Positions 11,621-16,084 of a stretch of DNA of 64,000 nt are shown in pieces. Origin of the DNA: an uncultured virus (IMG/VR IMGVR_UViG_3300021957_000018) (lineage: Duplodnaviria > Heunggongvirae > Uroviricota > Caudoviricetes). The position numbers and the translations under genes are program-made. The stretch lies in the IMG/VR virus record IMGVR_UViG_3300021957_000018. One strand, given 5' to 3'. The first letter of the stretch is position 1; every line of letters begins with the position of its first letter. Below the pieces are notes generated by a model. The model made no database searches and had not been told where the DNA came from. It was given only the letters and a program-made list of their open reading frames with translations.

Positions 11621-11646
11621 GGAAAGGAGGATCTAAACCCTCCTCT
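11621..11646 (-). terminator. Hairpin, probable terminator
   Basis: AGGAGGGU-UUAG-AUCCUCCU then UUCC, after the 98-aa gene. Confidence 0.55.
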
Positions 11647-11669
11647 CTATTCAAGTATGTTTGAAATAT

Positions 11670-11966
11670 TTACTTTACTTCTTCAACAACTTCATCTTCA
11701 GCTCCTTTTTCCTCTGCAGGTGCAGGGATAAATTCACCTTCTTTAAGGTCGATTGACCCTACTCCATATGCATCTTCTAATTCCTTAACAACCTCTTGTT
11801 CAGAAGTTCTTAATTCCTCTAGAAACTGCTCTGCGCTTTCTTTTCTTTGCTCTAGGTTAATTTCAGCTAATGAAATTTGTCCTAACTCTTGAATTAGTGC
11901 AGCGTTTTTGTTCTGCAGATCTTGTAACTTTCCAAGCTCTTCTTTACTCAGTTTTGTGTTTGCCAT
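11670..11966 (-). CDS. Small acidic coiled-coil protein, possible fibre/tail assembly chaperone
   Basis: 98 aa with heptad pattern and YGVGSIDLKEGEF. Function inferred from position only. Confidence 0.55.
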   Translation of the reverse strand: MANTKLSKEELGKLQDLQNKNAALIQELGQISLAEINLEQRKESAEQFLEELRTSEQEVVKELEDAYGVGSIDLKEGEFIPAPAEEKGAEDEVVEEVK

Positions 11967-12066
11967 TTTCTTTTTAATTTAAAACTTTAATTTAATCGAT
12001 TAATTATATATTAATATAAGAATAAATAGTATACGAAACAACTATTATTCTAAATACTTTTATTTT

Positions 12067-12348
12067 TGTGTTACCCAGTAGCGGCTATGTTTCAAAACGT
12101 TCGTTAGAACGAGAATCCGCAAGGTGCTCCCCACATTTGTTATCGCAGCTTTTTTAATTACTACTTCTATATATCACTATATAGGTCAGACTATATCTTC
12201 AATCTTTCGATTGCCGGACGCTCGTGGGTCTATTATTGTTGGGACTCAAGACCTAGTCGTTGCACCTTCTGCAAAACTTAAACCCTTTGCAGCTTGGCTC
12301 AGTGTTGTCTCATTGAGAGTTCCTCTGAATTCATCCAGTACGGGCATA
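12067..12348 (-). ncRNA. Stand-alone group I ribozyme core (IA-like architecture) plus short downstream exon-like segment
   Basis: P3 CUGGAUG(12338-12332)/CGUCCGG(12220-12214). P element AAUUCAGAGGAA, Q element CACUGAGCCAAG. P6a CUGCAAAG/UUUUGCAG. R element GGUGCAACGACUA. P7.1 GGUCU/AGACC. P8 CAAUC-GAAA-GAUUG. S element AAGAUAUAGUCU. P9 CUAUAUA-GUGA-UAUAUAG. Ends ...GAUAACAAAUG (probable omega-G at 12134). Confidence 0.9.
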
Positions 12349-12356
12349 TATAAATA
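12349..12356 (-). promoter_or_regulatory. Putative late promoter TATTTATA driving the ribozyme
   Basis: Same octamer as before the structural genes, 3 nt before the guide G at 12345. No minus-strand ORF follows it. Confidence 0.6.
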
Positions 12357-12371
12357 TCTCTTCTTTTTAAA

Positions 12372-13232
12372 TTAATCTACTTTAGCTTTAAATACCTGGA
12401 ACTCACTATATCTAATATTTCCGAAGTTTGCATCTCCATTAATACTATTTCTTGGACCTTCTCTATATACCCATTTACCGAAGTTAAATACCAGTATATA
12501 TAGTCCTGCTCCCCATGATGCATAATTGTAGTTGTTAACAAATAATGTTCTCAGTGATACATAATTAGTACTGCTAGTAAAGGCAGAAGAAGCATAATCT
12601 TCATATTCAACTATAGTCCCGCTTGAGTTTAGTTCTATCCTAAGTACCTGGTATGTTGCTCCATCTCCTAATTTCATGTTACTATGTAAGGAACCTCTAT
12701 AAGCATGTGGATCATTATCGGGATAATCGTAAGTAACAGGTCCATTACCAGACATCATAGGTTCACCTTCATCTGTATGAGTTATACTATTATTACGTGA
12801 GATATCAGTTGCTGCTGATTTAGATGCTATTAAGGTTGATTTTCTACTATTCTTATTGAGTAATTTTGTTAACTCTCTATAGGGTGTATTAGCAGCTAGA
12901 TACGCTTTTGTATATGGTATTCCAGCAGTTACTCCATATTCTGCTGCTTCATAACTGTCCGGTCTAAATAAAGCGTCTCCGTAATTAAAATTAATAGCAG
13001 CAAGTAAGAAGTTAAAATCATGATCATAACTTCGATAATCACCTAAACTATAACCGGATGGTCCTCGGGGACTTGATCTTATATTAGGATTAAGTCTATT
13101 TACTTCACCTAAAGTTCCTTGAGAGATTGCTCCAAGACTTACGTTAGTATAGCTTGTTGAACTACCGTAGTTGTTGTTTGCAAATTCTCTTCTTATTCCT
13201 AAAAGAGATATATTATTACTTGGTGCTGCCAT
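12372..13232 (-). CDS. Putative fibre-tip/adhesin protein
   Basis: 286 aa. N-terminus MAAPSNNISLLGIRREF resembles fibre-tip attachment peptides. Last gene of the fibre cluster. Confidence 0.45.
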   Translation of the reverse strand: MAAPSNNISLLGIRREFANNNYGSSTSYTNVSLGAISQGTLGEVNRLNPNIRSSPRGPSGYSLGDYRSYDHDFNFLLAAINFNYGDALFRPDSYEAAEYGVTAGIPYTKAYLAANTPYRELTKLLNKNSRKSTLIASKSAATDISRNNSITHTDEGEPMMSGNGPVTYDYPDNDPHAYRGSLHSNMKLGDGATYQVLRIELNSSGTIVEYEDYASSAFTSSTNYVSLRTLFVNNYNYASWGAGLYILVFNFGKWVYREGPRNSINGDANFGNIRYSEFQVFKAKVD

Positions 13233-13285: not shown

Positions 13286-14551
13286 CTATATTCCAAATCT
13301 GTTTTTGTATACGTTAAAATTTTGTTTAACTTGGTCGGCAGATAATACTCCATTATATACCTTACCTACGTACACTTGTCCGTTTAACCCGTAGGAGCCA
13401 CTTAGACCATGGTACTCAGCCCCTATTGTGATTTTGCCGGTATTTAGTACAACTGATGCTGTTTGACCTGTTGATATTGTTTCTTGTAATTCTCCGTTTA
13501 GGTAAATCGTAACAACGCCTGTTGATCTTTTCCAAGTACCTACCAAATGGTATTTCGTATCGTTATTTAATGTACCTGTTACCATTGCTACGTAGCTACT
13601 AGTTCCAAAACCCAACCATAACCCATATCTGTTTGAATTCTTGTAGGACATTAATTTAACACCTCTTTGGTGGTCTGTATCCGTACATATTACTGAAGTG
13701 TGAGGAGCACTTGAGGCTTCTTCATTAAAGACTGCTTCTAACGTAATACTATCAGTAATACCACAGTTAGTCGTAGTTTGAAAGTAGTCACCTGTTCCGT
13801 CTAAGTCTGGTTGCCCTGTTGAATCAAAAGAAACATTTGATACATCTATACTTGTTGTTCTTTTTAAGTCTATAAGAGATTGGGTTGATAAGCGTGTTGA
13901 ACCTGGTTGGATAGGAGGTATTACATTATTTCCGTATGTAACTTGTGGCAATGCCCACATAAAAAAACCTGTAAAAGAACCATTTGTTACTCCATTTTTA
14001 CGAGGATATAAAGGTATAAATCTAGTATTACCGTCAGAGGTAGCTTTTTTTGCTGTCACTTGCCAAGTACCTTTGTTGTTTAAATTATATTCACCTGGAA
14101 AACCGCTTACAAGAGACTCCCCTCCTGCTTCACCTTCTATTACTGCAGGAATTGAATCTAAATTGCAATCAGCGCTTGCGTATATCCAAGAAGACATTGT
14201 CATAGTAGCTCCGTTAGTACAAGCGATATCTCTTAGCATATATCCGTATGAGTTACTACCCCAACTACTACTTAGTGCTCCGCTCACGTGTTTGAATACT
14301 AATCCCAAATAAGTACCTATAGGGCCACTTACTCCAGGATGAGTGTATGTTGAATTTTCAGTCCACCTATTACCATCCCAATAATGCTTGGTATGAGTCC
14401 TAAGAGATTGAGTGTTTAACATACTATCCCATAAGTTTGCGCCTGGTTCGCCTTTATAAAACCTAGTTGAAGTGTTATTATCAGCTACACCGTATCCTGT
14501 ATCATATCCAAATACTAAACTATCTTTTATTAAATGAGGTCCTGTATACAT
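13286..14551 (-). CDS. LamG/concanavalin A-like lectin protein, paralogue A
   Basis: C-terminal LamG pattern (YHLVGTW...IYLNG...KVYNGVLSADQVKQNFN). Shares constant boxes with paralogues B and C. Confidence 0.75.
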   Translation of the reverse strand: MYTGPHLIKDSLVFGYDTGYGVADNNTSTRFYKGEPGANLWDSMLNTQSLRTHTKHYWDGNRWTENSTYTHPGVSGPIGTYLGLVFKHVSGALSSSWGSNSYGYMLRDIACTNGATMTMSSWIYASADCNLDSIPAVIEGEAGGESLVSGFPGEYNLNNKGTWQVTAKKATSDGNTRFIPLYPRKNGVTNGSFTGFFMWALPQVTYGNNVIPPIQPGSTRLSTQSLIDLKRTTSIDVSNVSFDSTGQPDLDGTGDYFQTTTNCGITDSITLEAVFNEEASSAPHTSVICTDTDHQRGVKLMSYKNSNRYGLWLGFGTSSYVAMVTGTLNNDTKYHLVGTWKRSTGVVTIYLNGELQETISTGQTASVVLNTGKITIGAEYHGLSGSYGLNGQVYVGKVYNGVLSADQVKQNFNVYKNRFGI

Positions 14552-15753
14552 TATATATTAAATCGGTTTTTGTATGCGTTAAAGTTTTGTTTTACTTCTT
14601 GTGCTGTAAGACCTGTGTCGTAAATTTTTGCTACAGCCATTAATCCTTCAAAGAAATACTGTCCACTAGTGCCACTAGCAAACGTTCCTATTCTAAAATC
14701 GTTATTCAACGTTAAGCTAGTTGTGTTTGTAGTACCAGTGCCAACACTTACTCCGTTGTGGTAAATTACCCAACTATTCCCATTTCTAGTTGCTACTATA
14801 TTATGCCAATTGTTTAAAGGCATGCTGAAATTACTGGACTGTACTTCAATATTACTATTACCTGTAACGACATGCACAGTATCTGGCGAAGCATGATAGT
14901 CAAATAGGAAGTATGCGCTAGTACCATTGGTATTTCCATCTCCCCTTGGATCCATTAAGTACATTCTAGAGTGGTTGTAACCTGTTGGGTATATCCAAAC
15001 TTCCATTGTTAAGCTTGCTCCTAAAAAAATATTGCTAGGCGAAGCAACTATTCTATCATCTGTTCCATCAAAATCAGGCTGTCCAATTGAATCAAAAGAT
15101 ACATTTGATACATCTATATTTGTTGTCTTTTTTAGGTCTATTAGTGATTGAGTGGATGATCTTGTTCCTAGGGAACCTATATATGGAGATAGTTGATTGC
15201 CAATTTCAAATTGTAAATCCTGTATTTTTAAATTTACTCCATTGCTATACTGGTACCCTTGTAGGTTAATATAAGAGGTTGTTGATGTTGTTGTAAAAGT
15301 TCTATAAGCCCTATACCATCCTCCTCCTAAATCAATCATATAACTAGTAGAAAATTTCCCTCCTTCTGTTATTTGAGAACCATTATGGTACTGTCTTACA
15401 TAAAACATATTTACGTGTGGGGTAGTCCCGCTATACTTAATAGTAGCACTAACCGTATACTCTGTACTGGCAGAGATATTGTTTATTGTAGAACTTGCAT
15501 AGAACTGTACTCCTCCTCCATTAGTTGTTATTAAATGTATACCTTGGTTACCTCTGTCTGTTGTATAGTAGGATGTAGAACCTGTCATTCCGGACCAATT
15601 ATTGAAGTATTTGGTCATATCGTTAGAGAGGTTACTAGTTGGTTTTCCTTGATAGTACCTAGAATTAGTAGCGGTGTTATTTACACCATATCCGGTATCG
15701 TATCCAAATACTAACCCATCTTTTTCTGTATTAGGTCCTCCTATGGTTGCCAT
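14551..15753 (-). CDS. LamG/concanavalin A-like lectin protein, paralogue B
   Basis: WHNIVATRNG...IYHNG...KIYDTGLTAQEVKQNFN, with a CBM-like N-terminal domain. Confidence 0.75.
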   Translation of the reverse strand: MATIGGPNTEKDGLVFGYDTGYGVNNTATNSRYYQGKPTSNLSNDMTKYFNNWSGMTGSTSYYTTDRGNQGIHLITTNGGGVQFYASSTINNISASTEYTVSATIKYSGTTPHVNMFYVRQYHNGSQITEGGKFSTSYMIDLGGGWYRAYRTFTTTSTTSYINLQGYQYSNGVNLKIQDLQFEIGNQLSPYIGSLGTRSSTQSLIDLKKTTNIDVSNVSFDSIGQPDFDGTDDRIVASPSNIFLGASLTMEVWIYPTGYNHSRMYLMDPRGDGNTNGTSAYFLFDYHASPDTVHVVTGNSNIEVQSSNFSMPLNNWHNIVATRNGNSWVIYHNGVSVGTGTTNTTSLTLNNDFRIGTFASGTSGQYFFEGLMAVAKIYDTGLTAQEVKQNFNAYKNRFNI

Positions 15754-15754
15754 A

Positions 15755-16084
15755 TTATTCTTCTATTTGTTCAGTCCACTGTTCGGTTGATAGTAGTTCT
15801 AATATTTCTGAATGTGTATATTCTGTATATTCTTCACTGTATACAGAAGGTCTACCGTAAGTACCTGCTTCAACTGTATTAGTTACTTCTTCTCCTGTTT
15901 CTGTATCTTCAAAAGTTTCTGTATAAGTTTCTTCTATTACATTAACGTCATATTTAACAAACGTTAAAGTCCCGTCTATAGACTTTCTTAAGGACTCTAC
16001 ATTTGATTCATGAACTTGATTAAAATCAATATCGTCTACTATACTTGTTGGTACTACTAACCATCTTCTATTTTCGAATCTCAT
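15755..16084 (-). CDS. Small acidic fibre-associated protein
   Basis: 109 aa (IDFNQV...LRKSIDGTLTFVKY...YTHSEILELL) packed tightly between the LamG genes. Confidence 0.65.
   Translation of the reverse strand: MRFENRRWLVVPTSIVDDIDFNQVHESNVESLRKSIDGTLTFVKYDVNVIEETYTETFEDTETGEEVTNTVEAGTYGRPSVYSEEYTEYTHSEILELLSTEQWTEQIEE

What the first reader, a model, noticed from the sequence alone, without database searches (positions are those of the whole stretch)
12134..12356. Orphan group I ribozyme with its own promoter, no host gene and no homing endonuclease
Seen: all core helices P3-P9 and the P/Q/R/S elements can be paired by eye on the minus strand, with GNRA loops on P8 and P9 and a phage-intron-like end (GAUAACAAAUG). 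Both flanking genes look intact, so nothing is obviously interrupted. Upstream of P3 there is only GCCCGUA, and 3 nt before its G is the TATTTATA motif found before the structural genes. Established: group I introns normally sit inside a gene, with a 5' exon forming P1; engineered 5'-truncated ribozymes that begin at the guide G act in trans. Inference: the phage transcribes, late in infection, a catalytic RNA that starts at its guide sequence. It would have to find a ...GGGU splice site elsewhere, either downstream in cis or on another phage or host RNA (trans-cleavage or trans-splicing).
Basis: partly seen in the sequence, partly recalled or inferred. Interest (0 to 1): 0.92.

Follow-up and report, generated by a model that had tools for sequence, protein, structure and literature searches.

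The report
Permuted phage ribozyme making RNA circles
A self-splicing RNA in a marine phage is wired back to front, so instead of mending a gene it seems to cut the transcript between two genes and tie a tiny leftover piece into a circle.

Summary
The ribozyme is real: Rfam RF00028 hits 12393..12167 (-) at 81.9 bits. The flanking ORFs are intact, and there is no homing endonuclease and no usable upstream P1. GCCCG (12345-12341) pairs with UGGGU (12077-12073), which lies downstream of the core and 59 nt past the terminal G (12132). That order is a naturally permuted intron-exon: guide, core, omegaG | 59-nt mini-exon | 5' splice site.

The same layout recurs in 14 of 14 sequences of three divergent ribozyme types, and the guide and its target change together. 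A second helix, which I call Px, clamps the two splice sites.

In metatranscriptome contigs, two contigs end exactly at 12132. A third has a breakpoint there. One closed contig joins U12073 to G12131, as predicted for a 59-nt circular exon.

TATTTATA is a genuine intergenic motif: 14 of 15 minus-strand copies are intergenic. Whether it fires, and where transcription starts, is untested.

Best reading (about 0.75): a back-splicing group I ribozyme that severs late transcripts at a gene boundary, with the circle probably a by-product. Seven literature searches found no natural phage or bacterial case.

The parts
12349..12356 (-). TATTTATA, a promoter-like motif 3 nt upstream of the guide G
   Evidence: 14 of 15 minus-strand copies are intergenic, and 9 lie 14-28 nt before start codons. 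It is present before the guide in 14 of 14 ribozymes of three types, with spacers of 3, 4 or 10 nt. Promoter activity and start site are not shown.
12341..12346 (-). Internal guide sequence (U)GCCCG, the 3' strand of P1. G12345 pairs with the splice-site U12073.
   Evidence: pairs with 12077-12072. The fifth pair is G.U in 5 sequences, A-U in 2 and U-A in 1 of the 8 window-type sequences.
12167..12338 (-). Catalytic core: P3 (12338-12332 with 12220-12214), P4 (12328-12323 with 12304-12299), P5 (12318-12308), P6 (12298-12264), P7 (12258-12254 with 12193-12189), P7.1 (12253-12227), P8 (12213-12200), P9 (12184-12167)
   Evidence: Rfam alignment, coordinates, and 480 of 480 cells paired on 8 sequences, with a compensatory C-G to U-A change in P7.1.
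12145..12164 (-). Hairpin after P9 (GUAG...CUGC), labelled P9.1 by me
   Evidence: helix 11: 4 pairs, one of which varies U-A/U.G.
12132..12144 (-). 3' tail GAUAACAAAUGUG ending in omegaG (G12132). The 3' splice site lies between 12132 and 12131. Bases 12135-12132 form the 5' strand of helix Px.
   Evidence: contigs of X15 and X17 end at 12132, and the X18 contig has a breakpoint there. A conserved ACA...UG tail is seen in all three types.
12073..12131 (-). 59-nt mini-exon, the predicted circular product. Its last 5 nt (12077-12073, UGGGU) form the 5' strand of P1. The 5' splice site lies between 12073 and 12072.
   Evidence: table 5: a joint from 12131 to 12073 'goes back 59' (X17, depth 4.6, side 43, both 0). 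The bin depths fit a contig that covers 12073-12131 only. No start codon. Length is 17-75 nt in relatives. The fold is no more stable than shuffles (z 0.45).
12067..12070 (-). CACA, the 3' strand of helix Px, at nt +3 to +6 after the 5' splice site. It pairs with UGUG (12135-12132), which includes omegaG.
   Evidence: helix 12: U-A in 7 sequences and A-U in 1, plus U-A in 7 and U.G in 1. A helix of 4-5 bp is present in 14 of 14 sequences of three types, built from different letters.
12372..13232 (-). Upstream 286-aa ORF (context). Function unknown; no PHROG or Pfam match.
   Evidence: The stop codon is at 12374-12372. Homologues of this ORF precede every window-type ribozyme.
11670..11966 (-). 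Downstream 98-aa ORF (context), followed by tail sheath (11527-9782) and tail tube (9744-9259)

Best explanation
This is a naturally permuted group I intron, a 'back-to-front' intron-exon unit sitting between two late structural genes of an uncultured marine myovirus. The order on the RNA is: guide sequence, catalytic core P3-P9, terminal G (omegaG, 12132), a 59-nt non-coding mini-exon (12131-12073), the 5' splice site (U12073|A12072), then a few nucleotides of '5' intron'.

P1 forms between the guide (12345-12341) and the end of the mini-exon. That helix closes around the whole core.

Inferred chemistry, following the standard group I pathway (established knowledge):
1. A free guanosine nucleotide attacks after U12073. 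This releases the downstream RNA, which now carries that G at its 5' end.
2. Helix Px, which had held omegaG paired to nt +3 to +6 of the released piece, falls apart.
3. omegaG enters the G-site.
4. The 3'-OH of U12073 attacks the bond between 12132 and 12131.

Products: a 59-nt circular mini-exon, and the upstream RNA ending in the folded ribozyme at omegaG-OH.

Shown: ribozyme membership; the permuted P1 and Px with covariation; RNA contig ends or a breakpoint at 12132; one U12073-G12131 junction contig.

Inferred: GTP dependence, the order of the steps, and the biological role. My best guess for the role (about 45% within this reading) is cis RNA processing at a gene boundary. It would cut read-through late transcripts and leave the upstream mRNA with a compact structured 3' end. 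The circle would be a by-product, because its length and sequence are not conserved.
For: 1; the full core scores 81.9 bits, but the model's P1/P2 part is not credibly matched.

2; 5 of 5 metagenome loci that encode a homologue of the 286-aa protein carry the ribozyme just after its stop codon. In L090 the ribozyme is 95% identical over 240 nt, while the protein is 48% identical.

3; 10 of 10 ribozymes examined have a P1 site of 5 bp or more within 150 nt downstream. The chance expectation is 0.09-0.38 sites each.

4; 14 of 14 sequences (three types, 13 distinct) show motif, guide, core, omegaG, short exon, target and Px. Guide/target pairs are GCCCG/UGGGU, GCCCA/UGGGU, GCCCU/AGGGU, GUCCAGA/UCUGGAU, GUCCU/AGGAU, GUCCG/CGGAU and GUCCUGU/AUAGGAU.

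5; on 8 window-type sequences, 480 of 480 cells are paired. Three pairs change on both sides, and two of those lie in the new helices (P1 columns 17-297, Px columns 223-307). No shuffle of 500 reaches the observed covariation score, and slid controls pair in 31-42% of cells.

6; the upstream P1 candidates are not conserved across loci.

7; the RNA contigs X15 rec 6 and X17 rec 17 end at 12132, and X18 rec 28 has a breakpoint at 12132. No contig in the 4 runs bridges 12132|12131 or 12073|12072. X17 holds a joint 12131 to 12073 ('goes back 59'). I had noted the 5' splice site before seeing the RNA data.

8; the back-splice junction is absent from all 114 DNA loci and from the window. The linear 5' splice-site junction is present in 11 loci.
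Against: - The circle rests on one contig, in one of four RNA runs. These are Logan contigs, not raw reads. They were laid at 88% likeness, and the tool warns that joints below 95% may come from relatives or repeats.
- The four runs share a year and a habitat, so they may be one campaign.
- The junction could not be checked against DNA runs.
- I found no P10 pairing and there is no P2.
- The core is almost invariant within each type, so most helices carry no covariation. I derived P1 and Px from these same sequences, which inflates the pairing percentage (the tool says the same).
- L090 has a second 5-bp site at +92, and L103 has a longer 7-bp site at +165 inside the next ORF.
- The mini-exon is not conserved and folds no better than shuffles, so no function for the circle is evident.
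- The role in RNA processing is inference only.
Confidence: 0.75

Rival explanations
1. It is a stand-alone, 5'-truncated ribozyme transcribed from its own late promoter and starting at the guide, and it acts in trans on other phage or host RNAs that carry ...GGGU. In a refined form, it first sheds its mini-exon as a 'pro-sequence' and then acts with a free guide and omegaG.
For: The TATTTATA motif is conserved before the guide in 14 of 14 ribozymes and is otherwise an intergenic, pre-gene motif. In L123 the next gene has its own TATTTATA, so the unit looks self-contained. In X18 a contig joins omegaG 12132 to other sequence (41 unplaced letters, then 13300 to 12687). An omegaG attack on another RNA would leave such a joint.
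Against: A covarying cis target exists in every copy, so no trans target is needed. A guide of 5-7 nt gives little specificity. If the 41 letters are collinear, the X18 joint follows ...UAUUAU (13342), which does not pair with the guide. Contigs in X15 and X16 run unbroken from the upstream ORF into the ribozyme. With a 3-nt spacer, a start 5 or more nt past the motif would omit the guide G (promoter spacing is recalled, not tested).
Confidence: 0.1
2. It is a conventional cis-splicing intron whose 5' exon lies upstream, at U12470 (AUGGGU|AUAUA, 11 bp with the guide region in the window) or at U13387 (UACGGGU, 7 bp). Splicing would give an alternative C-terminus to the 286-aa protein or to the 421-aa protein.
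For:: a 6-7-bp guide match lies at -123 in the window and L086, and at -1041 in the window and L087-L089. Read, joining after 12470 to 12131 stays in frame for 9 codons.
Against: The -123 site is lost in L087-L090, L093 and L094, and the -1041 site is absent from L086, L090, L093 and L094. The C-terminal 32 residues that such splicing would remove are conserved down to 49% identity. No skipping joint from 12470 or 13387 to 12131 appears in the 4 RNA runs, and X15 rec 6 is colinear across 12470.
Confidence: 0.04
3. The ribozyme only cuts itself off at omegaG (3' splice-site hydrolysis) or is an inactive relic. The 'circle' contig would then be an assembly artefact or a tandem duplication in some phage genome.
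For: Hydrolysis at the 3' splice site is a known side reaction of group I introns (recalled), and it alone would explain the ends at 12132. Only one contig shows the circle junction.
Against: The junction falls exactly at the U that pairs with the guide G, and at the base after omegaG, with no ambiguity (both = 0). The X17 bin depths (2.13 and 6.58) are reproduced if that contig covers 12073-12131 and nothing outside. That describes a closed cycle, not a repeat embedded in flanks (my arithmetic, table 2). The junction is absent from 114 DNA loci. The guide-target and Px covariation has no explanation in a relic. The 95% identity beside a 48%-identical gene argues against decay.
Confidence: 0.1

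Closest known systems
Conventional phage group I introns (Rfam RF00028), for example those splitting the large terminase gene of Vibrio phage vB_VpaM_R16F, the nearest sequence relatives found
   Same: The same catalytic core (P3-P9, P7 G-site, P7.1 insertion, GNRA loops on P8 and P9), a guide sequence with a U.G pair at the cleavage site, and a terminal G.
   Different: Those sit inside a gene, with the 5' exon upstream forming a P1 hairpin, and splicing restores the reading frame. Here nothing is interrupted. P1 is made with a strand downstream of the core, P2 and P10 are missing, and the 'exon' is a 17-75-nt non-coding piece.
Engineered permuted intron-exon (PIE) and ribozyme-first circularisation constructs. 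Example: the Tetrahymena-based system with the target RNA placed downstream of the ribozyme (PMC10415121, abstract read). Classic T4 td and Anabaena PIE are recalled.
   Same: The order ribozyme, then cargo, then 5' splice site, and back-splicing of the cargo into a circle.
   Different: Those are laboratory designs with long cargos and added complementary arms. This one is natural, genomic, broken in the P1 loop, has a minimal cargo, and has its own short clamp helix (Px) that includes omegaG.
ND5-717 group I intron of mushroom-coral mitochondria (PMC6545197, abstract read)
   Same: [quoted passage not shown]
   Different: There the permutation arises at transcript level in a circular organelle genome. 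The break is in P8, the exons encode ND5, and splicing restores a gene. Here the permutation is fixed in a linear phage gene order, the break is in L1, and the exon codes for nothing.
Circularly permuted group II introns of bacteria (PMC8637638, passages read)
   Same: Natural permuted self-splicing ribozymes that stand alone, interrupt no ORF and release small RNA circles of unknown function.
   Different: A different ribozyme class with different chemistry (branching), found in bacterial chromosomes and plasmids rather than phage late operons.
Lariat-capping (GIR1) ribozyme (as described in PMC8637638, passages read)
   Same: A group I descendant that no longer splices a gene. It cuts at a site 3' of its core and so defines the 5' end of a downstream mRNA.
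   Different: GIR1 catalyses branching to a 3-nt lariat, has a remodelled core and lives inside eukaryotic twin-ribozyme introns. In the window only RF00028 passed any Rfam family's cut-off, and the junction seen is a 3'-5' exon ligation.

Membership tests
Group I intron ribozyme (Rfam RF00028) | Conserved core P3-P9, including the P7 guanosine-binding helix | tested here: met
   81.9 bits against a cut-off of 50, over the full model length; all listed core pairs are standard in 8 of 8 sequences.
Group I intron ribozyme (Rfam RF00028) | P1 helix between an internal guide and the strand ending in the splice-site U (U.G wobble) | tested here: met
   Met, but with reversed connectivity. U12073.G12345 plus 4-6 further pairs are present in 14 of 14 sequences and covary. 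The model's own upstream P1 position is not credibly filled.
Group I intron ribozyme (Rfam RF00028) | Terminal guanosine (omegaG) at the 3' splice site | tested here: met
   G12132 ends a conserved ACA...UG tail. Two RNA contigs end there and one has a breakpoint there.
Group I intron ribozyme (Rfam RF00028) | Interrupts a host gene whose frame or RNA is restored by splicing | tested here: not met
   The 286-aa ORF is complete and its C-terminus is conserved in 6 of 6 homologues. The 98-aa ORF is complete. No tRNA gene in the window.
Group I intron ribozyme (Rfam RF00028) | P2 and P10 helices | tested here: not met
   Only UA (12340-12339) separates the guide from P3. The first exon bases GGGAGC have no complement 5' of the guide G (by eye).
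Group I intron ribozyme (Rfam RF00028) | Guanosine- and Mg2+-dependent self-splicing | not testable with these tools
   Needs in vitro transcription.
Permuted intron-exon / back-splicing group I RNA | The order 3' intron part, then exon, then 5' splice site on one transcript | tested here: met
   Coordinates and architecture (14 of 14).
Permuted intron-exon / back-splicing group I RNA | Exon ends ligated head to tail (circular exon) | tested here: inconclusive
   The U12073-G12131 joint is seen in 1 of 4 RNA runs, as a contig rather than raw reads. It is absent from 114 DNA loci. It was not checked against DNA runs.
Lariat-capping ribozyme (GIR1) | Match to the GIR1 model; residence in a twin-ribozyme intron next to an endonuclease gene | tested here: not met
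   RF00028 is the only family over its cut-off in the window. No endonuclease ORF nearby.
   A covarying cis substrate is present in every copy. The start site could not be tested with contigs.

The most novel reading that the evidence does not exclude
These units are self-maturing ribozyme genes rather than mere processing sites. Each sheds its mini-exon as a circle and becomes an enzyme with a free guide and a reactive omegaG, which then joins itself to other RNA. One version: omegaG attacks far upstream in its own transcript and circularises the mRNA of the 286-aa structural protein. That circle would be about 1.2 kb if the 41 unplaced letters of the X18 contig are collinear with the window. 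The result would be a natural circular mRNA in a phage.
Probability: 0.12. Interest if true: 0.95.

Novelty: new variant of a known kind. Interest (0 to 1): 0.88.

Why it matters
Permuted group I introns are the standard laboratory route to circular RNA, yet in the papers I searched they count as a human invention. The one natural exception I found is a coral mitochondrial intron that still repairs a gene.

A phage-borne family of at least three types, fixed in the genome between late genes, would change that picture. These ribozymes have a minimal non-coding exon and a dedicated clamp helix. They would show that evolution has repurposed the group I fold as an RNA-cutting and circle-forming device. 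They would be the group I counterpart of the circularly permuted group II introns.

The finding also gives compact (about 290 nt) natural back-splicing scaffolds with exons as short as 17 nt. And it raises a testable question: how do phages shape the ends of their late mRNAs without protein factors?

Tried and rejected
- Upstream P1 at 12477-12467. It is complementary over 11 bp to the guide region in the window, but it is lost in L087-L090, L093 and L094, and it would delete a conserved C-terminus.
- Intron at the stop codon (GAU|UAA ... GGG|UAAC). No guide pairs with ...GUAGAU, and the spacing and sequence between stop codon and motif differ in L094 and L093.
- tRNA or tmRNA host gene: none in the window.
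- Close relatives in cultured phages: no megablast match. blastn gives only short core pieces of other introns.
- The nearest held record, G001, does not cover the locus.
- Relatives of the sheath locus. Among the 80 records of L003-L082, only one (G058, the record of L057) has group I hits over the cut-off, and it has two. One more record (G029) has a 15-bit match. The other hits in those two calls belong to L001 and L002 and to L092-L094.
- L092/L105, L101, L112-L114 and L108 are ordinary-looking introns, or have ORFs upstream. L096, L102, L117 and L124 were chance pattern matches or short core matches. I dropped all of these from the tables.
- L001 and L002 are 99% identical to the window and were left out of A5 and of the tables.
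- A DNA form of the X18 joint: 0 pattern matches in IMG/VR. This is inconclusive.
- MAFFT alignments A2-A4 misaligned the 3' end of L090. A5, cut at common ends, was used instead.
- Parts of the stretch without RNA contig cover (12072 to about 12028 in most runs), the contig break at 12336/12337 in X17, and the contig end at 12354 in X18 cannot be read as transcript ends or levels. The tool's own caveat says so.
- Earlier findings of this scan were not open.

Full report
**1. What is in the sequence**

The window has a single Rfam match at gathering threshold. It is RF00028 (group I intron), 12393..12167 on the minus strand, at 81.9 bits against a cut-off of 50, E 2.8e-19. P3 to P9 align cleanly. 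The model's P1/P2 part is forced onto the last codons and the TAA of the upstream ORF, with three of nine P1 pairs non-standard and low posterior values.

The surroundings are the late structural module of a myovirus. It holds terminase, portal, protease, major head protein, giant tail-fibre proteins, two LamG-domain proteins, a 286-aa ORF (13232-12372), the ribozyme, a 98-aa ORF (11966-11670), tail sheath and tail tube. All of these named genes are on the minus strand. The nearest cultured phage by sheath protein is Flavobacterium phage vB_FspM_immuto, at 62% identity. There is no tRNA gene and no endonuclease ORF.

**2. The flanking genes are whole**

Six homologues of the 286-aa protein (93-49% identical) keep its last 32 residues. 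The 98-aa ORF is kept in relatives that lack the ribozyme, L003 and L005. Those carry a 125-aa gene and a glycosyltransferase-like gene upstream instead.

**3. The motif**

TATTTATA is not enriched overall: 17 copies against 13.8 expected. But 14 of the 15 minus-strand copies are intergenic, in a window that is 5.9% intergenic. Nine lie 14-28 nt before start codons, including those of sheath, tube, portal and terminase. A tenth lies 21 nt before a small ORF. It is a real pre-gene motif, plausibly a late promoter. I could not test its activity or start site.

**4. Where the guide's partner is**

All five metagenome loci that encode a homologue of the 286-aa protein carry the ribozyme directly after its stop codon. 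In L090 the protein is 48% identical, yet the ribozyme is 95% identical over 240 nt (window 12377-12138).

Past that block the sequences diverge into a variable hairpin. They then converge again on ...NGGGUAACAC.

The base after GCCC in the guide and the base before GGGU change together: G.U in five sequences, A-U in two, U-A in one. I noted this downstream P1 (GGGU|AACAC) before any RNA data.

An upstream candidate at 12477-12467 matches the guide region over 11 bp in the window. It is lost in L087-L090, L093 and L094, and it would remove a conserved C-terminus. A second upstream match, at 13387, is restricted to the window and L087-L089.

**5. A family with the same wiring**

Pattern scans and RF00028 searches of related viral contigs turned up two further, clearly different ribozyme types: L107/L109 and L103/L123/L125/L126. 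In all 14 sequences (13 distinct) the order is:
- TATTTATA;
- a spacer of 3-10 nt;
- a guide beginning with G;
- the core;
- a conserved ACA...UG tail;
- a short exon of 17-75 nt;
- a target ending in U that pairs with the guide over 5-7 bp;
- a few more bases that pair with the last 4-5 bases of the intron, including its terminal G.

I call this last helix Px.

The guide/target pairs differ between types: GCCCG/UGGGU, GUCCAGA/UCUGGAU, GUCCU/AGGAU, GUCCG/CGGAU. By chance, a site of 5 bp or more would be expected 0.09-0.38 times in the 150 nt searched.

On the eight window-type sequences (alignment A5), all 480 cells of my 60-pair structure are standard pairs. Three pairs change on both sides, and two of those lie in P1 and Px. 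No shuffle of 500 reaches the covariation score, and slid controls pair in 31-42% of cells.

Caveats. I derived P1 and Px from these sequences. The cores are almost invariant within a type. L001 and L002 (99% identical to the window) were left out.

**6. RNA evidence**

Four seawater metatranscriptome runs hold the stretch as Logan contigs. They share a year and a habitat, so they may be one campaign.
- X15 record 6 (12132-12914) and X17 record 17 (12132-12335) end exactly at 12132.
- X18 record 28 has a breakpoint exactly at 12132.
- X16's contig stops at 12147.
- No contig bridges 12132|12131 or 12073|12072, although the DNA is continuous there.
- X17 holds a joint 'from 12131 to 12073, goes back 59' (depth 4.6, side 43, no ambiguity).

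On the RNA strand that joint reads ...CUGGGU joined to GGGAGC.... It links the U that pairs with the guide G to the base after the terminal G.

The X17 bin depths (2.13 and 6.58) are reproduced if that contig covers 12073-12131 and nothing outside. That describes a closed cycle. This arithmetic is mine, on table 2.

The junction is absent from 114 DNA loci and from the window. These are the products expected of a permuted intron-exon: a linear ribozyme ending in omegaG, and a circular exon.

Limits: one contig, contigs rather than reads, a likeness threshold of 88, and no check against DNA runs.

**7. Mechanism**

I read the element as a permuted group I intron broken in the P1 loop. P1 closes around the whole core, and Px stacks next to it and holds omegaG paired.

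The steps below are inferred, by analogy with the standard pathway:
1. Free guanosine attacks after U12073 and releases the downstream RNA.
2. Px melts.
3. omegaG docks in the G-site.
4. U12073 attacks 12132|12131.

I found no P10 and no P2.

**8. Function**

The mini-exon varies from 17 to 75 nt. It is conserved only where it forms P1 and at its first bases, and it folds no better than shuffles. I therefore take the circle to be a by-product.

The units always sit just after a stop codon in late structural operons, and the downstream genes differ between loci. Two contigs link the upstream ORF to the ribozyme.

My best guess is cis processing. Read-through transcripts are cut at the gene boundary. 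The upstream mRNA keeps the folded ribozyme as its 3' end, and the downstream RNA gains a guanosine at its 5' end.

The motif may instead, or also, start RNAs here. If the start lies 5 or more nt past it (the spacing I recall for sigma-70 and T4 late promoters), such RNAs would lack the guide G in two of the three types. The ribozyme would then cut only read-through RNA. This is speculation.

**9. Comparison and novelty**

The nearest sequence relatives are ordinary introns in the terminase genes of Vibrio phages. Natural back-splicing of a group I intron is reported for coral mitochondria, which the authors call the first natural case (PMC6545197, abstract). Natural permuted group II introns that make circles are known in bacteria (PMC8637638, passages). 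Ribozyme-first circularisation is an engineered design (PMC10415121, abstract).

Seven full-text searches found no natural permuted group I ribozyme in a phage or bacterium. Papers outside that library could exist.

I file this as a new variant of a known kind.

**10. Unexplained**

In X18 record 28, omegaG 12132 is joined to 41 unplaced letters and then to 13300-12687. It could be a circularised upstream RNA, a ligation in trans, or a relative with a different gene order. A pattern search for a DNA form in IMG/VR found nothing.

Noticed in passing
window 12132 joined to about 13341/13300 (X18 record 28): An RNA-library contig joins the ribozyme's terminal G to 41 unplaced letters and then to the region upstream of and inside the 286-aa ORF (13300-12687). 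If the letters are collinear, the joint follows U13342, which does not pair with the guide. Possible readings: a 1.2-kb RNA circle, a ligation in trans, or a relative with a different gene order.
   Followed up: partly
window 12477-12467 and 13393-13387 (-): There are cryptic upstream matches to the guide. AUGGGUAUAUA pairs over 11 bp with UAUAUGCCCGU, in the window and L086 only. UACGGGU pairs over 7 bp, in the window, and as UAUGGGU in L087-L089. They could allow occasional conventional splicing in this lineage. No such joint was seen in the 4 RNA runs.
   Followed up: partly
window 12041-12013 (-): A sigma-70-like pair, TTGTTT-N17-TATATT, plus a near-copy of the motif (CTATTTATT, 12029-12021), lies before the 98-aa ORF. 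AGTTGT...TATATT is conserved in relatives with different downstream genes and in L003, which lacks the ribozyme.
   Followed up: no
IMG/VR record behind L057 (L103 and L107); also L109, L123, L125, L126: Two further types of permuted group I ribozyme have mini-exons of only 17-19 nt. Two of them sit in one contig, after a LamG-domain gene and after a 223-aa gene.
   Followed up: yes
window 11637 to 11980 (X15): A contig at depth 16.6 skips 342 bases and so removes the whole 98-aa ORF. It is probably a relative that lacks this gene.
   Followed up: no
window 11947 (X18): A contig of the 98-aa/sheath transcript ends at 11947 and runs into sequencing-adapter letters. That is 19 nt inside the annotated ORF, so the start codon at 11966 or the transcript start may need revisiting.
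   Followed up: no
loci L025-L027, L029, L033-L035, L037, L038, L040, L044-L046, L050, L053, L057, L064, L066, L080: In many relatives the sheath match spans roughly 2110-2330 nt instead of 1746. RF00028 found nothing there, so this is probably an inserted protein domain.
   Followed up: no
L108 = Vibrio phage vB_VpaM_R16F, 81452-84533: The large terminase gene is annotated as four separate CDS pieces. The gap I read between two of them holds group I intron sequence.
   Followed up: partly
window 13286-16084 (-): Three neighbouring ORFs (421, 400 and 109 aa) share near-identical C-terminal endings (...VKQNFN.YKNRF.I). The two long ones also share N-termini. They look like a shuffled family of LamG-domain fibre or receptor-binding proteins next to the ribozyme.
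   Followed up: no
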